Virus record (IMG/VR): IMGVR_UViG_2721755676_000006
DNA length: 36,332 bases
Origin: a virus
Lineage: Duplodnaviria; Heunggongvirae; Uroviricota; Caudoviricetes
Reading direction: 5' to 3' (one strand)
A model generated the notes under the pieces. That model worked only from the letters and a program-made list of their open reading frames with translations, was not told where the DNA came from and searched no databases. Below, piece after piece: positions 3,075 through 36,332 of this stretch. Position 1 is the first letter of the stretch. Each line of letters opens with the position of its first letter. The position numbers were made by a program, and so were the translations under genes.

Positions 3075-3164
3075 TTTTCGAGTTCTCCCCATTTTTGCTA
3101 AATTCACAATAATGATACCGCATTATTCCATTTTGAAAACTTAAAAGTTCTCCATTGCGAAGAA

Positions 3165-4265
3165 TCATTCCATTTCGAAATCATCAATCCTCACTTCAAG
3201 CTCCAGACTGGTCGTAAAACCGTTATCCGGGCTGACGGTATGCGTCAGAGTCGTAATGGTCCATTCCGCATCATCTATCGGCTGTTTAAAACCACTGACC
3301 TTCACAGGCATTTCCGTGTAGAGATCTGCCCGCCCTTCTGCCAGTTGTAGCGAAAATGACGCAACGCCGCGTTGCAGGCGTTCCCACTGCATTTTCGCCG
3401 CTCGTTCGGCGTTGCTCCGGTTGGCATAAGTGCGATTAAGTACCAGCACGTTTTCATCCGTACCCACCAGGTAATCGCCCTGCTTCGCTTCTGGCTCTTT
3501 CTTCTGCTTCTTAGTTCTGCGCTTACGCTTCACCGTGGTGCTTTCTTTCTTCGCAGGTTCGCGGGTATGCAACCAGCTGGCAATTACGCCCGTGTAGGCT
3601 CCGCGATCTGCCAGGGTAAATCGGTGACTGTCGCCGTCCTTGCGTGTGATAGTGATCACTGGCAGAGGTTTACCAGTGGCGCTTTTGCCCTGCCCCTGCC
3701 GGATGAATAACAGATTGCCATTTTTCACCGACGCGATGGCACCGTACTGTCGCGCCAGCCGCATCAGAAAACTGCCGTCACTCTCATTAGTCTGGTCTAT
3801 ATGCTCCACGGGCTTATCCGACAGGTCTTTACCCAGTGCCATCTTCAGCTTGTGCCGCGCGGCTATTTCCTTCACCACTTCCCCGACGGTGGTCTTATGC
3901 CACGATTTTTCACGGCGGGTATTCAGCGTTTCCCGAAAATCAGCACTTCGCGCCCGGATAGTCAGGCGGTCCGGTGCGCCAGTGTGTTCAATCTCGTCCA
4001 CCGTGAATGTCCCTTTCGGGAAAAGCGGCTGCCCCTTCCAGCCCAGCGCCAGCGTAATGACCGCACCACGGCGCGGCAGCACGATTTTTCCGTCGGCGTC
4101 GTCCAGCTCCAGATCAAGCTGGTCCGCGTCAAAGCCCCGATTGTCCGTCAACGTCAGACTCATCAGACGGTTATCCAGCACAGTAGTGATATCCCTGCCC
4201 TCAATACTGATGCTGAATGCGGGAGTTTTGTTGCCTTTGTTAAGCAGTTCAGAGCTGAAATTCAC
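3165..4265 (-). CDS. D: tail protein D (late control gene D family); GTG start with GGGAGGG RBS
   Basis: 366-aa ORF with P2 gpD-like blocks (RLMSLTLTDNRGF, WKG, FLMRLARQYGA); position between ogr and U. Confidence 0.85.
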   Translation of the reverse strand: MNFSSELLNKGNKTPAFSISIEGRDITTVLDNRLMSLTLTDNRGFDADQLDLELDDADGKIVLPRRGAVITLALGWKGQPLFPKGTFTVDEIEHTGAPDRLTIRARSADFRETLNTRREKSWHKTTVGEVVKEIAARHKLKMALGKDLSDKPVEHIDQTNESDGSFLMRLARQYGAIASVKNGNLLFIRQGQGKSATGKPLPVITITRKDGDSHRFTLADRGAYTGVIASWLHTREPAKKESTTVKRKRRTKKQKKEPEAKQGDYLVGTDENVLVLNRTYANRSNAERAAKMQWERLQRGVASFSLQLAEGRADLYTEMPVKVSGFKQPIDDAEWTITTLTHTVSPDNGFTTSLELEVRIDDFEME

Positions 4266-33965: not shown

Positions 33966-34169
33966 TTAAGCAGACAAAGCATCAACAGTCAGAGCAGCCA
34001 TGTTAATCATTACCTTTTCACGTTTTTTGTCTTTACGAAGACGATGACGAGGTAGTCGGCCATCAGCCAACATGTCGTTAATCGTATCAATAGAAAGGCC
34101 AGTCAGTTCGCTATAACGTTCGATTGTGACATGTGGTGTATTCAGAGTAATTGAAATGTTAGGTGTCAT
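33966..34169 (-). CDS. apl: Apl/Cox-like excisionase and lytic-promoter regulator
   Basis: 67-aa basic ORF with HTH ([18 protein letters not shown]); first gene of the lytic operon, divergent from cI. Confidence 0.65.
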
Positions 34170-34258
34170 AAGGCAACATTCCTTCTAGATATGGCTTGTG
34201 GCGAGCCGTTGTTTGTCGTGATTAGTAGTAAAGGCTCCAAAAGAACACTTCTGGTTCA

Positions 34259-34287
34259 ACTTTAAGATCGCTTTTGGAATCTGTCAA
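34259..34287 (-). promoter_or_regulatory. candidate lytic promoter (pR-like): -35 TTGACA, 17-bp spacer, -10 TAAAGT
   Basis: Minus-strand TTGACA at 34282-34287 and TAAAGT at 34259-34264, read directly in the cI-apl intergenic region. Confidence 0.35.
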
Positions 34288-34314
34288 CGAATTTTGGATT
34301 TCTTTGGAGGACTT

Positions 34315-34884
34315 GTGGATTTCAATAGCGGCGGTAAGAAAGCCATAGAACGTTTAGTTGAAGCATATGGGTTCGGTACCCGTCAGGCTCTATGTGATCA
34401 TTTAGGTGTTTCTAAGAGCACCATGGCAACGCGCTATATGCGTGATATTTTTCCAGCAGATTGGGTAATCCAGTGCGCCCTTGAAACGGGCACCTCGCTT
34501 AATTGGCTAACAACAGGGCATGGTTCAAAGCAAGCATCAGCAAATACAAATACTATAGAAGTAGAAAAATATTTATTGTCTGATGGAGCATTGCAGAAAG
34601 ACGGTTTTTATATTTTTGATAAGGGATTTCTACCCTCTACGTTTAAAAAACCTTTTGTCATCACAGATAACAATTCTGAATTTATTTGTGATAAAGAATT
34701 TGATGATATACGTGATGGTAAATGGGTAATAAGTATTGATGGCGAAATAACGATCCGTGACATTACTCGTTTACCCGGTGGAAGAATCTTCGTCGAGGGT
34801 GGAAACAGAGCCTTCGAATGCAAGATAGAAGACATTGAAATAATTGGTAAAATTATAAGTTTAACAGTCAAGTATGTTAAATAG
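34315..34884 (+). CDS. cI: CI-like immunity repressor (186 type)
   Basis: GTG at 34315 preceded by GGAGG (track start 34294 is TTG); N-terminal HTH (..RQALCDHLGVSKSTMATRYMR..) plus C-terminal domain; about 190 aa. Confidence 0.65.
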   Translation: MDFNSGGKKAIERLVEAYGFGTRQALCDHLGVSKSTMATRYMRDIFPADWVIQCALETGTSLNWLTTGHGSKQASANTNTIEVEKYLLSDGALQKDGFYIFDKGFLPSTFKKPFVITDNNSEFICDKEFDDIRDGKWVISIDGEITIRDITRLPGGRIFVEGGNRAFECKIEDIEIIGKIISLTVKYVK

Positions 34885-34899
34885 TACCGGGAGGAAACT

Positions 34900-35091
34900 A
34901 TGCTTGGTAAGGTATTTTTTGTGGTTTTGTCATGTTCTTTGTTATTAAACCCACTAACTACCTATGCTAGAAATTATCCCTGCTCAGGGAAAAAGGGAGG
35001 TGTTTCTCACTGTACCTCAGATGGCAAATTCGTTTGCAATGATGGAACTATTAGTAAATCCAAAAAAATCTGTACTAAAAACTCACGATAA
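34900..35091 (+). CDS. small secreted Cys-rich peptide (moron candidate)
   Basis: 63-aa ORF with strong GGGAGG RBS, N-terminal signal peptide (cleavage likely after TYA) and a Lys-rich mature peptide with 4 Cys. Confidence 0.5.
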
Positions 35092-35279
35092 CTTTTGCTT
35101 TTATATCTGCGTCTAAAATAAAAATGAGCCGCAGGTTAACCGCAAAAGTTACATGCTCACATAGCAAAAAGAATAGCCAACTTAATTATGGCTTCAGTGA
35201 GATGTATGGTCGTAGGATTTCATACATTGACACTGGTTATACATACAGTGAAAATGCTCTCTACTGGAGGGCATTTTTT

Positions 35280-36332
35280 ATGGCAGTACGAAAACTCACC
35301 ACTGGGAAATGGCTTTGCGAATGTTACCCCGCCGGACGAAGTGGGCGTCGTGTGCGTAAACAATTCGTCACCAAAGGCGAAGCACTGGCTTTTGAGCGCC
35401 ACACGATGGAAGAAACCGAAGCAAAGCCCTGGCTGGGTGAATCAGTGGATCGTCGAACACTGAAAGACGTGGTTGAGCTATGGTTCAAACTACATGGTAA
35501 ATCTCTGACAGCTGGGCAGCATGTCTATGACAAATTGCTGTTGATGGTTGACGCTCTGGGAAATCCCATTGCAACCGATCTCACCTCTAAAATGTTTGCC
35601 CACTATCGAGATAAACGCCTGACAGGAGAGATCTACTTCAGCGAAAAATGGAAGAAAGGAGCAAGCCCGGTCACCGTTAACCTGGAGCAAAGCTATCTAA
35701 GTAGTGTTTTTAGCGAACTATCCCGCCTGGGCGAATGGTCGTATCCGAACCCACTGGAGAACATGCGAAAATTCACCATCGCAGAAAAAGAGATGGCATG
35801 GCTTACCCATGAACAGATTGTTGAATTGCTGGCTGATTGCAAACGTCAGGACCCAATTCTGGCACTGGTAGTCAAGATATGCTTAAGCACAGGCGCACGC
35901 TGGCGAGAAGCAATAAATCTTACCCGTTCACAGGTGACTAAATACCGAATTACCTTTGTCAGAACGAAGGGGAAGAAAAACAGAAGCATTCCCATCAGTA
36001 AAGAGCTTTACGAAGAGATTATGGCACTTGATGGGTTCAATTTCTTTACAGACTGCTATTTTCAATTTTTATCCGTGATGGAAAAAACGTCTATCGTGCT
36101 CCCTCGCGGTCAACTGACACACGTTCTGCGTCATACGTTTGCGGCGCATTTTATGATGTCGGGTGGAAACATCCTGGCCTTACAAAAAATTCTCGGGCAT
36201 CACGATATAAAAATGACGATGCGTTACGCACATCTGGCACCGGATCATCTGGAAACGGCGCTCCGTTTCAACCCTCTGGCAACGCTGCCAAGTGGCGACA
36301 AAGTGGCGGCAGCGGTTGGCATTACCCCGTAA
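35280..36332 (+). CDS. int: tyrosine integrase (P2/186 family)
   Basis: ATG at 35280 (MAVRKLTTGKWLCECYP..); C-terminal R...HxLRH...Y catalytic motifs; ORF track start 35124 trimmed. Confidence 0.9.
   Translation: MAVRKLTTGKWLCECYPAGRSGRRVRKQFVTKGEALAFERHTMEETEAKPWLGESVDRRTLKDVVELWFKLHGKSLTAGQHVYDKLLLMVDALGNPIATDLTSKMFAHYRDKRLTGEIYFSEKWKKGASPVTVNLEQSYLSSVFSELSRLGEWSYPNPLENMRKFTIAEKEMAWLTHEQIVELLADCKRQDPILALVVKICLSTGARWREAINLTRSQVTKYRITFVRTKGKKNRSIPISKELYEEIMALDGFNFFTDCYFQFLSVMEKTSIVLPRGQLTHVLRHTFAAHFMMSGGNILALQKILGHHDIKMTMRYAHLAPDHLETALRFNPLATLPSGDKVAAAVGITP

What the first reader, a model, noticed from the sequence alone, without database searches (positions are those of the whole stretch)
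34900..35091. Small secreted Cys-rich peptide encoded between the repressor and integrase genes
A 63-aa ORF with a strong RBS (GGGAGG) starts 16 bp after the cI stop. It is co-transcribed in the lysogenic operon and so would be expressed in the lysogen. It has a signal peptide and a Lys-rich mature part of about 40 aa with four cysteines. Genes at this position are typical lysogenic-conversion morons.
Basis: inference. Interest (0 to 1): 0.5.

Follow-up and report, generated by a model that had tools for sequence, protein, structure and literature searches.

The report
Prophage copy of periplasmic mini-protein YdcA
The 63-codon ORF is a real, conserved gene for a small exported, disulfide-rich YdcA-family protein carried just after the repressor gene of a 186-like E. 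coli prophage; the family is already catalogued, and its function is still unknown.

Summary
ORF 34900-35091 (+) has a GGGAGG Shine-Dalgarno 5 nt upstream and starts 15 nt after the cI stop. It encodes a 23-residue signal peptide and a 40-residue basic mature peptide with four invariant cysteines. It is a real gene: 11 synonymous against 1 non-synonymous change versus the REL606 allele.

It belongs to the YdcA family (NCBIfam NF007463, above cut-off; Pfam PF27300; phrog_6000). RefSeq already annotates the identical protein. It is 57% identical to E. coli K-12 YdcA, a predicted periplasmic protein of unknown function.

Phage 186 has no gene between cI and int. In related prophages of E. coli, Klebsiella, Hafnia and Yersinia, and in Haemophilus phage HP2, this gap is a variable cargo slot. 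YdcA usually comes first in it, sometimes followed by a KAP NTPase (defence candidate PDC-S20). About 12% of complete E. coli genomes, including BL21 and REL606, carry this cI–ydcA block.

The only solved relative is Legionella Dis2, a disulfide-pinned periplasmic protein under the outer membrane. Some family members are fused to secreted nucleases.

So the gene is a lysogen-expressed accessory gene for an envelope protein. Expression and benefit (exclusion or envelope fitness) are inferred, not shown. It is catalogued and of modest interest.

The parts
34315..34884 (+). cI repressor gene of the 186 type. RefSeq relatives start at GTG 34315; the mechanical ORF begins at TTG 34294.
   Evidence: Pfam Phage_CI_repr 2.7e-31 and Phage_CI_C 3.6e-29. 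RefSeq annotation of near-identical loci.
34889..34894 (+). Shine-Dalgarno GGGAGG of the ydcA-like gene, 5 nt before the ATG
   Evidence: Sequence read directly.
34900..35091 (+). ydcA-like gene: 63 codons plus stop. This is the finding.
   Evidence: the ORF listing. NCBIfam NF007463 115.8 bits, cut-off 93. phrog_6000. Precomputed Pfam PF27300 'YdcA' on close relatives. pN/pS about 0.03. RefSeq names it 'YdcA family protein' or 'hypothetical protein'.
34900..34968 (+). Codons 1-23: predicted Sec signal peptide [23 protein letters not shown], with predicted cleavage after Ala23
   Evidence: Heuristic hydrophobicity and -3/-1 check. This region varies across the family while the following core is conserved. 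K-12 YdcA is described as having a signal sequence (bioRxiv 10.1101/2024.02.12.579971).
34969..35088 (+). Codons 24-63: mature 40-aa basic peptide [40 protein letters not shown] with four family-invariant Cys
   Evidence: Alignments A1 and A3. pI 9.7. AlphaFold2 models have mean pLDDT 77-80, rising to 87-90 in the core, and show a small beta-hairpin.
35092..35191 (.). AT-rich spacer found only in the 'YdcA-only' arrangement
   Evidence: blastn of the spacer matches only L003 and L010 over this part. GC is 35%.
35227..35255 (+). Sigma-70-like promoter match TTGACA-17-GAAAAT in the int-module leader. It would start transcription inside the hairpin's 5' arm.
   Evidence: Consensus scan only. Function is not shown.
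35250..35278 (+). Terminator-like hairpin with a 13-bp stem. Its 3' arm contains the int Shine-Dalgarno GGAGGG and a U-run, and it ends 1 nt before the int ATG.
   Evidence: RNA fold -17.1 kcal/mol, z = -4.9. The same structure with a different stem sequence is found in divergent int modules L097, L100 and L102.
35280..36332 (+). P2/186-type tyrosine integrase. The true start is ATG 35280, not the 35124 ATG of the mechanical ORF.
   Evidence: Pfam Int_N and Phage_integrase. RefSeq annotation of identical loci.
34259..34287 (-). Promoter-like site TTGACA-17-TAAAGT facing the apl/cII genes: the presumed early lytic promoter (pR equivalent). The lysogenic promoter pL was not located.
   Evidence: Consensus scan. 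Gene order is as in phage 186.

Best explanation
The ORF is a genuine accessory (cargo) gene of a 186-like E. coli prophage. It encodes a YdcA-family mini-protein and is a paralogue of chromosomal E. coli YdcA.

How it most likely works (inferred unless marked as shown):
1. It is transcribed with cI from the lysogenic promoter. No promoter or terminator lies between them, and the gap is 15 nt.
2. It is translated from its own strong Shine-Dalgarno.
3. The 63-aa precursor is exported by Sec and cut after Ala23.
4. The 40-aa basic peptide is oxidised in the periplasm to two disulfides.
5. It acts there as a small binding module at the inner face of the outer membrane. Its only solved relative, Legionella Dis2, consists of two YdcA-like lobes that sit on outer-membrane lipoproteins.

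Shown here: the gene is real and under purifying selection; it belongs to the YdcA family; it has signal-peptide features; it is an insertion relative to phage 186; and it sits in a variable cargo slot.

My estimates for the pay-off to the lysogen:
- About 0.3: envelope-level protection against incoming phage or DNA, as with the unrelated periplasmic Glo protein in the same slot of Vibrio phage K139.
- About 0.3: extra envelope or stress fitness, like host YdcA.
- About 0.15: binding or anchoring related to DNA or nucleases.
- The rest: something else.
For: Family identity:
- NCBIfam NF007463 above cut-off; phrog_6000; Pfam PF27300 YdcA precomputed on close relatives.
- 57% identity to K-12 YdcA.

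Real gene:
- pS 0.257 against pN 0.007.
- The exact protein is seen on at least 1000 contigs.

Export:
- The family has a variable hydrophobic leader, a -3/-1 cleavage motif and an invariant 4-Cys core.
- K-12 YdcA is described as a signal-sequence periplasmic protein.
- Dis2 is the only significant PDB relative: profile E = 1e-4, single sequence E = 2.2e-4, Foldseek top hit with prob 0.98 and 38% identity.
- The reciprocal search with Dis2 lobe 1 was specific.
- In the cryo-EM structure Dis2 is disulfide-bonded and lies next to the outer membrane (PMC8486379; PMC12716638).

Lysogenic-operon cargo:
- In phage 186, cI and int overlap, and the lysogenic operon is annotated from pL.
- The order cI-YdcA-(variable gene)-int is found in E. 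coli, Klebsiella, Hafnia and Yersinia prophages.
- In Haemophilus phage HP2 the YdcA ATG overlaps the cI stop.
- 628 of the 664 E. coli genomes that match carry both the cI 3' half and YdcA.
- No + strand promoter or terminator site lies between cI and the ORF.

Defence context:
- K139 glo (periplasmic, phage exclusion) lies in the same slot.
- The slot is described as a defence hotspot in K139-like phages (PMC9122126).
- The neighbouring KAP NTPase matches PADLOC PDC-S20 at 2.4e-171.
Against: - No transcript, protein or phenotype data exist for the prophage gene. The lysogenic promoter was not located in the window.
- Signal-peptide cleavage and disulfide formation are predicted, not measured.
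- The ORF matches no PADLOC model and is not homologous to Glo.
- Family members also sit in ordinary chromosomal contexts. This argues against a function dedicated to phage defence.
- The gene is lost, replaced or IS-disrupted in some relatives.
Confidence: 0.6

Rival explanations
1. Dedicated superinfection-exclusion or anti-phage factor. The periplasmic peptide would block adsorption or DNA injection by related or competing phages, as the functional analogue of K139 Glo.
For: - It sits directly behind cI in the lysogenic operon across Peduoviridae from Enterobacterales to Haemophilus.
- The same slot holds the exclusion gene glo in K139. The slot is a published defence hotspot in K139-like phages (PMC9122126).
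- In relatives it shares the slot with the PDC-S20 KAP NTPase.
- In Moraxella and Acinetobacter phages the homologue sits as an extra gene in the tail module.
Against: - No PADLOC match and no homology to Glo.
- Chromosomal, non-phage copies include core E. coli ydcA.
- YdcA is the constant member of the slot while the neighbouring gene varies, which is unlike typical fast-swapping defence cargo.
- No phenotype is known.
Confidence: 0.3
2. Host-fitness (lysogenic conversion) factor. It would give an extra dose of a YdcA-type envelope protein that improves tolerance to acid, organic acids or envelope stress, with no role in phage-phage conflict.
For: - It is 57% identical to K-12 YdcA.
- Deleting ydcA made E. 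coli W sensitive to 3-hydroxypropionate, and ydcA is reported to be acid-induced via YdcI (PMC7642389).
- Family members occur in housekeeping neighbourhoods.
Against: - The phage subfamily (NF007463) is distinct from the chromosomal one: NF007462 scores 68.5 bits, below its cut-off of 118.
- The 3-HP phenotype comes from one study of one strain, and the authors state the involvement is unclear.
- This reading does not explain the tight linkage to cI.
Confidence: 0.3
3. Periplasmic nucleic-acid-related module. The basic YdcA domain would bind DNA, or tether nucleases to the envelope. The free phage-encoded copy would interfere with uptake or entry of foreign DNA (transformation, conjugation, phage).
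For: - Among 40 long cluster representatives the domain is fused to Endonuclease_NS (4), SNase (1) and a PLD-type domain (1).
- It lies next to a thermonuclease gene on a Rhizobium plasmid, and next to a GIY-YIG nuclease gene on a Citrobacter plasmid.
- The mature peptide has pI 9.7 and the family core has a median pI of 9.1.
- Phage-borne copies outside Enterobacterales are in Haemophilus, Moraxella and Acinetobacter, which are naturally competent genera by my own knowledge.
Against: - Fusions are a minority of the family.
- An anchoring role would explain the fusions as well as DNA binding does.
- About half of the family cores are not strongly basic.
- Dis2 contacts proteins, not DNA.
- No DNA-binding fold was recognised.
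Confidence: 0.15
4. Exported antimicrobial or toxin-like peptide, or a protease inhibitor. It is a small, cationic, disulfide-rich peptide.
For: - Its size, charge and cysteine content resemble defensin-like peptides.
- There are weak sequence hits to plant Pin-II proteinase inhibitors (E 0.07-0.8).
Against: - The Pin-II hits are not significant, and they align to the inhibitor's cysteine-rich core ([22 protein letters not shown]…), a stretch that by my own recollection of these inhibitors excludes the reactive loop.
- There is no adjacent immunity or export gene.
- The Sec signal delivers only to the producer's own periplasm.
- A chromosomal paralogue exists in E. coli K-12.
Confidence: 0.04
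5. Not a gene: a chance ORF in an AT-rich spacer.
For: It is short (63 codons) and AT-rich (35% GC).
Against: - pN/pS is about 0.03.
- It scores above the curated NCBIfam cut-off.
- The family comprises 441 clusters with an invariant Cys pattern across Proteobacteria.
Confidence: 0.01

Closest known systems
E. coli K-12 YdcA (b1419), founding member of the YdcA family (Pfam PF27300; NCBIfam PRK10040 models)
   Same: - 57% identity over 53 residues.
- Same length class and the same layout: a signal peptide followed by the core PCSGxKGGxSHC…FVCNDGxISxSKKxC with four Cys.
- Predicted periplasmic location; function unknown.
   Different: - The window gene belongs to the sister NCBIfam model NF007463, not the chromosomal model NF007462.
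- It is carried by a prophage directly behind cI, not next to rydC/cybB/hokB on the chromosome.
[quoted passage not shown]
   Same: - It is the only significant relative with a solved structure.
- Shared motif: CCSKMGGINYC…GRLVCNNG against [11 protein letters not shown]…GKFVCNDG.
- It has a signal peptide, is disulfide-bonded, and lies in the periplasm next to the outer membrane.
   Different: - Dis2 has two lobes pinned by five disulfides, and is part of a secretion machine where it contacts DotK, DotC and DotD.
- The window protein is a single lobe, and no secretion system lies nearby.
- The similarity is marginal, and the papers read here do not mention it. One of them calls Dis2 Legionella-specific.
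Glo of Vibrio cholerae phage K139
   Same: - Same place in a P2-related phage, between cI and int in the lysogenic operon.
- It has a signal peptide, and the record annotates it as periplasmic and involved in phage exclusion.
   Different: No sequence or profile similarity. Glo is 137 aa and not Cys-rich.
Unannotated ORF of Haemophilus phages HP2 and S2 (L001 2920..3102)
   Same: - 54% identical YdcA-family protein of 60 aa.
- It lies directly after cI (its ATG overlaps the cI stop) and upstream of int.
   Different: - It is followed by a second exported cargo gene, orf1(S), before int.
- It is not annotated in the GenBank records.
Classical prophage morons such as lambda bor and lom, and HK97 gp15 (from my own knowledge of the literature)
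   Same: It is an extra gene absent from a close relative (phage 186). It has a deviant base composition, encodes an envelope-targeted product and is presumably expressed in the lysogen.
   Different: - It has no promoter of its own and rides on the repressor transcript.
- The only terminator-like element nearby belongs to the int leader.

Membership tests
YdcA family (NCBIfam NF007463 / Pfam PF27300) | Score above the curated cut-off of the family model | tested here: met
   NF007463 scores 115.8 bits against a cut-off of 93, covering 58 of 58 model positions. PF27300 is missing from the local Pfam copy, but it is precomputed for the 98%-identical P0001 and for relatives.
YdcA family (NCBIfam NF007463 / Pfam PF27300) | Conserved core PCSGxKGGxxHC…FxCxDGxxSxSK…C with four cysteines | tested here: met
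   All four Cys and the motif are present. They are invariant or nearly invariant in alignments A1 and A3.
YdcA family (NCBIfam NF007463 / Pfam PF27300) | N-terminal Sec signal peptide directly before the core | tested here: met
   Hydrophobic core 2.73 and T-Y-A at positions -3 to -1. Of 162 family members, 158 have the hydrophobic leader and 159 have the -3/-1 motif. This is a heuristic check; SignalP was not available.
Moron (extra prophage gene with its own promoter and terminator, expressed in the lysogen) | Absent from closely related phages; deviant base composition | tested here: met
   Phage 186 has cI abutting int. The ORF has 35% GC against 51% for the window.
Moron (extra prophage gene with its own promoter and terminator, expressed in the lysogen) | Own promoter upstream | tested here: not met
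   The gap after cI is 15 nt, and no sigma-70-like site lies on the + strand between 34300 and 34900.
Moron (extra prophage gene with its own promoter and terminator, expressed in the lysogen) | Own terminator downstream | tested here: inconclusive
   The strong hairpin plus U-run at 35250-35278 lies 159 nt downstream. It belongs to the int module, which is also shared by loci with other cargo.
Moron (extra prophage gene with its own promoter and terminator, expressed in the lysogen) | Expressed from the prophage | not testable with these tools
   This needs RNA-seq, Ribo-seq or proteomics of a lysogen.
Periplasmic superinfection-exclusion proteins of P2-related phages (K139 Glo) | Homology to Glo | tested here: not met
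   hhalign probability is 0.9%.
Periplasmic superinfection-exclusion proteins of P2-related phages (K139 Glo) | Encoded between cI and int, with a signal peptide | tested here: met
Periplasmic superinfection-exclusion proteins of P2-related phages (K139 Glo) | Exclusion phenotype | not testable with these tools
   This needs plating and injection assays.
Dis2 (Lpg0823)-like proteins | Significant sequence or fold similarity to a Dis2 lobe | tested here: inconclusive
Dis2 (Lpg0823)-like proteins | Two lobes pinned by five disulfides, as part of a Dot/Icm secretion system | tested here: not met
   The window protein has a single core with four Cys. Its genetic context is a prophage, with no secretion system.
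Known or candidate anti-phage defence systems (PADLOC-DB 2.0.0) | Match to a defence-protein model | tested here: not met
   The ORF has no hit. The KAP NTPase that shares the slot in relatives matches PDC-S20.
Bacterial lipoproteins | Lipobox ending in a conserved Cys after a leader of adequate length | tested here: not met
   Cys12 follows V-L-S after only 11 residues and is not conserved in the family.

The most novel reading that the evidence does not exclude
YdcA-type mini-proteins would be a previously unrecognised class of periplasmic factors that temperate P2/186/HP-like phages couple directly to their repressor gene. A single Dis2-like, disulfide-stapled lobe would dock on an outer-membrane-proximal target and block entry of foreign DNA (superinfecting phage, conjugation or transformation). 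The nuclease-fused family members would be the 'armed' version of the same targeting module.
Probability: 0.15. Interest if true: 0.6.

Novelty: already known. Interest (0 to 1): 0.33.

Why it matters
The gene is in roughly one in eight complete E. coli genomes, including the workhorse strains BL21(DE3) and REL606. It sits in the one prophage operon presumed to stay on in the lysogen, as in phage 186, yet nobody knows what it does.

If it proves to act on the envelope, by exclusion of phage or DNA or by stress tolerance, it would assign a first function to the whole YdcA family, including the E. coli K-12 y-gene. It would also give a functional handle on the Legionella T4SS component Dis2, which the literature treats as Legionella-specific.

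As it stands, it is a correctly spotted but already catalogued accessory gene of unknown function.

Tried and rejected
- **Local Pfam scan of the ORF:** only a chance hit (GULLO2-like, E = 0.075), because PF27300 is not in that copy.
- **PADLOC:** no hit for the ORF.
- **Rfam on 34100-35500:** no RNA family.
- **Glo homology:** rejected.
- **Lipoprotein reading:** rejected, because Cys12 is not conserved and the leader is too short.
- **Pin-II protease-inhibitor similarity:** not significant, E 0.07-0.8.
- **IMG/VR scan with the family alignment:** 493 loci matched, but the 80 returned were all near-identical E. coli prophages, so they added no diversity.
- **megablast against the phage collection:** only a 79-bp match in the int leader of Klebsiella phages. 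No sequenced phage isolate carries this cI-ydcA block at high identity.
- **Literature:** searches for the protein accessions, PF27300 and 'YdcA family' found nothing on the prophage gene. Most 'ydcA' hits in other organisms (B. subtilis rhomboid, the Neisseria island, the pS88 plasmid) looked from title and context to be unrelated uses of the name and were not opened.
- **Lysogenic promoter pL:** the consensus scan did not find it.

Full report
**1. The observation**

The window is a 186-like (Peduoviridae) E. coli prophage inserted next to rcdA/ybjJ. At its right end the gene order is cII and apl on the minus strand, then cI, the ORF in question and int on the plus strand.

The ORF runs from 34900 to 35091, starts with ATG and has 63 codons. 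The cI stop is at 34882-34884. The 15-nt gap TACCGGGAGGAAACT holds GGGAGG 5 nt before the ATG.

The product is [23 protein letters not shown] / [40 protein letters not shown]. The first 23 residues have one Lys, a hydrophobic core, and Thr and Ala at -3 and -1. The remaining 40 residues hold 7 Lys, 2 Arg and 4 Cys, with pI 9.7.

**2. It is a real gene**

Alleles from other E. coli prophages differ almost only at synonymous sites. Window against REL606 gives 11 synonymous and 1 conservative non-synonymous change (pS 0.257, pN 0.007). The L009 allele shows the same pattern.

The exact protein occurs on at least 1000 contigs in public assemblies. Sources name it 'hypothetical protein', 'YdcA family protein' or, in UniRef, 'Conjugal transfer protein'.

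**3. Family**

- The ORF scores 115.8 bits on NCBIfam NF007463 (PRK10040.1-2), above the cut-off of 93. It scores below cut-off on the sister model NF007462.
- It matches phrog_6000 at 1.9e-34.
- Close relatives carry the precomputed Pfam family PF27300, named YdcA.
- It is 57% identical to E. coli K-12 YdcA (b1419). That is a 57-aa protein with a signal sequence, predicted to be periplasmic and of unknown function (bioRxiv 10.1101/2024.02.12.579971).
- The only phenotypes found in the literature come from one study. A ydcA deletion in E. coli W is sensitive to 3-hydroxypropionate, and ydcA is reported to be acid-induced through YdcI. The authors state that its involvement is unclear (PMC7642389).
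- A profile search of 1.84 billion cluster representatives finds 441 clusters at E <= 1e-3.
- Across the family the N-terminus varies but stays hydrophobic and ends in a small-x-small motif. The core PCSGxKGGxSHC…FVCNDGxxSxSK…C, with its four Cys, is nearly invariant. That is the signature of an exported, disulfide-bonded domain.
- Cys12 in the leader is not conserved and does not make a lipobox.

**4. Genomic setting: a cargo slot behind the repressor**

In phage 186 itself the cI stop overlaps the int start. The record annotates the lysogenic operon as transcribed from pL and pE. So the ydcA-like gene is an insertion relative to 186. Related prophages fill the same gap in different ways:

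| Content between cI and int | Where |
|---|---|
| YdcA only | window, REL606/BL21, Yersinia |
| YdcA + 443-aa KAP NTPase | E. coli, Klebsiella |
| YdcA + unknown 347-aa protein | Hafnia |
| Different 307-aa gene + KAP NTPase, no YdcA | E2348/69 |
| KAP NTPase only, disrupted by IS5 | E. coli L011 |
| YdcA interrupted by IS5 | E. coli L010 |

- The KAP NTPase matches the PADLOC defence candidate PDC-S20 at 2.4e-171. YdcA matches no PADLOC model.
- In Haemophilus phages HP2 and S2 an unannotated 60-aa YdcA homologue (54% identity) starts on the cI stop codon. It is followed by another exported protein and then int.
- In Vibrio phage K139 the same slot holds orf2 and glo. Glo is annotated as a periplasmic protein involved in phage exclusion, but it is unrelated in sequence.
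- Rousset et al. describe the cI-int interval of K139-like Vibrio prophages as a defence hotspot (PMC9122126). A 2026 survey lists an int-to-primase hotspot holding 8% of the defence systems found in P2-like phages (PMC13586616).
- 664 of 5426 complete E. coli genomes match the cI 3' half plus ydcA. In 628 of them the match covers at least 80% of the query.
- The block is AT-rich: cI 38%, ydcA 35% and spacer 35%, against 51% for the window.

**5. Elsewhere**

- Moraxella Mcat and Acinetobacter Vieuvirus phages carry a homologue among the tail genes, upstream of the tape-measure gene.
- Homologues are also on small mobilisable Acinetobacter plasmids, on p3ABAYE and on Rhizobium plasmids.
- Others sit in ordinary chromosomal neighbourhoods.

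So the domain is a general envelope module that mobile elements have picked up repeatedly.

**6. Structure and distant relatives**

AlphaFold2 gives a small beta-hairpin domain with mean pLDDT 77-80, rising to 87-90 in the core.

The only significant relative with a solved structure is chain AN of 7MUC/7MUD. This is L. pneumophila Lpg0823 (Dis2):
- Profile hmmsearch gives E = 1e-4, with a second weaker match to the second lobe.
- The mature peptide alone gives E = 2.2e-4.
- It is the Foldseek top hit, with probability 0.98, 38% identity and E = 0.086.
- In the reverse direction, Dis2 lobe 1 hits 175 of 213 family sequences. Among 662 six-frame fragments of the window it hits only this ORF.

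**7. Domain fusions**

I scanned the 40 cluster representatives of 120 residues or more against Pfam. In these proteins the YdcA core follows the signal peptide. It is then joined to:
- Endonuclease_NS (4 proteins);
- SNase (1);
- a PLD-type domain (1);
- PBCV basic-adaptor motifs (2);
- a type VI VasL domain (1).

Others are tandem arrays of two or three YdcA units. On plasmids a YdcA-domain gene lies next to a thermonuclease gene in Rhizobium. In Citrobacter it lies at the end of a tssFGJE cluster, next to a GIY-YIG nuclease gene. This fits a small binding or anchoring module, possibly for DNA, but does not settle the ligand.

**8. How it most likely works**

Shown here:
- The gene is real and under purifying selection.
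- It is a YdcA-family member with signal-peptide features.
- It is an insertion relative to 186, in a variable cargo slot.

Inferred:
- It is transcribed with cI. No + strand promoter or terminator site lies between them, although pL itself was not located.
- It is translated from its own Shine-Dalgarno.
- It is exported by Sec and cleaved after Ala23.
- It forms two disulfides in the periplasm.
- It acts at the outer-membrane-proximal envelope as a binding module.

The benefit to the lysogen is open. I put envelope-level exclusion of phage or DNA at about 0.3, and host envelope or stress fitness at about 0.3. A role related to DNA or nucleases gets about 0.15, and other roles take the rest.

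**9. A related feature seen on the way**

Immediately before the int ATG (35280) lies a 13-bp hairpin at 35250-35278, with -17.1 kcal/mol and z = -4.9. Its 3' arm contains the int Shine-Dalgarno and a U-run.

Divergent int modules in E. coli, Klebsiella and Hafnia have a different stem sequence at the same place, with compensatory changes. The last 88 bp before int travel with the int module whatever cargo precedes it.

A promoter-like site at 35227-35255 would start transcription inside the 5' arm. This suggests that the repressor-cargo transcript is terminated, or int translation is masked, in the lysogen. If so, ydcA would be the last efficiently expressed gene of the lysogenic transcript. 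This is inference only.

**10. Verdict**

The gene is not new: RefSeq annotates this exact protein as a YdcA family protein, and the family has curated models.

This analysis adds three points:
- the conserved position directly behind cI across Peduoviridae, including an unannotated copy in HP2 and S2;
- the variable cargo slot shared with a defence candidate;
- a probable link to Legionella Dis2 and to secreted nucleases.

Interest is modest (0.33). The most novel reading that the evidence does not exclude is a repressor-coupled periplasmic anti-DNA-entry factor. I give it a probability of about 0.15.

Noticed in passing
window 35250-35278 (+), with promoter-like site 35227-35255: A terminator-like hairpin (13-bp stem, -17.1 kcal/mol, z = -4.9) holds the int Shine-Dalgarno in its 3' arm and ends 1 nt before the int ATG. 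Divergent int modules (L097, L100, L102) keep the structure with a different stem sequence, through compensatory changes. A sigma-70-like promoter match would start transcription inside the 5' arm, giving a hairpin-free int mRNA. Phage 186 has no such element.
   Followed up: partly
   Followed up: yes
PDB 7MUC/7MUD chain AN (L. pneumophila Dis2/Lpg0823) versus window 34969-35088: Both lobes of the Dot/Icm component Dis2 look like YdcA-family domains: profile E = 1e-4, Foldseek top hit, specific reciprocal search. A 2025 paper calls Dis2 Legionella-specific, and neither Dis2 paper read here mentions YdcA.
   Followed up: partly
L009 3397-4728; L097-L101 4198-5529; L106 4385-5902; L011 3223-3990: In sister prophages the cI-int gap also carries a KAP-family NTPase that matches the PADLOC defence candidate PDC-S20 (E = 2.4e-171). 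In E2348/69 it carries a different 307-aa gene instead of YdcA. The gap therefore behaves as a cargo or defence hotspot in 186-like prophages.
   Followed up: partly
L010 about 3113-4257 (E. coli strain a7) and L011 4091-5071: IS5-family ISKpn26 copies are inserted in the slot. One interrupts the ydcA-like ORF and the other interrupts the KAP NTPase gene.
   Followed up: no
Proteins P0097, P0133, P0161, P0182, P0184; loci L113 and L114: YdcA domains are fused to, or encoded next to, secreted nucleases (Endonuclease_NS, SNase, PLD-type, GIY-YIG). One sits at the end of a plasmid T6SS cluster, and one cluster representative carries a VasL domain.
   Followed up: partly
window 35124-35279 and 34294-34314: The mechanical ORFs overstate two genes. 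The 402-aa 'int' ORF starts at 35124, but RefSeq and homology place the start at 35280 (350 aa). The cI ORF starts at TTG 34294, but relatives are annotated from GTG 34315 (189 aa).
   Followed up: yes
window 35222-35300: The int leader (79 bp) is 96% identical to Klebsiella phage 4LV2017 and the Kp48xx phages. These share nothing else with the cI-ydcA block, which shows modular exchange at the cargo/int boundary.
   Followed up: no
L004 3438-3617 (Moraxella phage Mcat17); L005 about 3501-3599 and L006 142-240 (Acinetobacter Vieuvirus phages): YdcA homologues sit among the tail genes upstream of the tape-measure gene. They are unannotated in the two Acinetobacter phages. This is a second, independent 'extra gene' position for the family in phages.
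   Followed up: no
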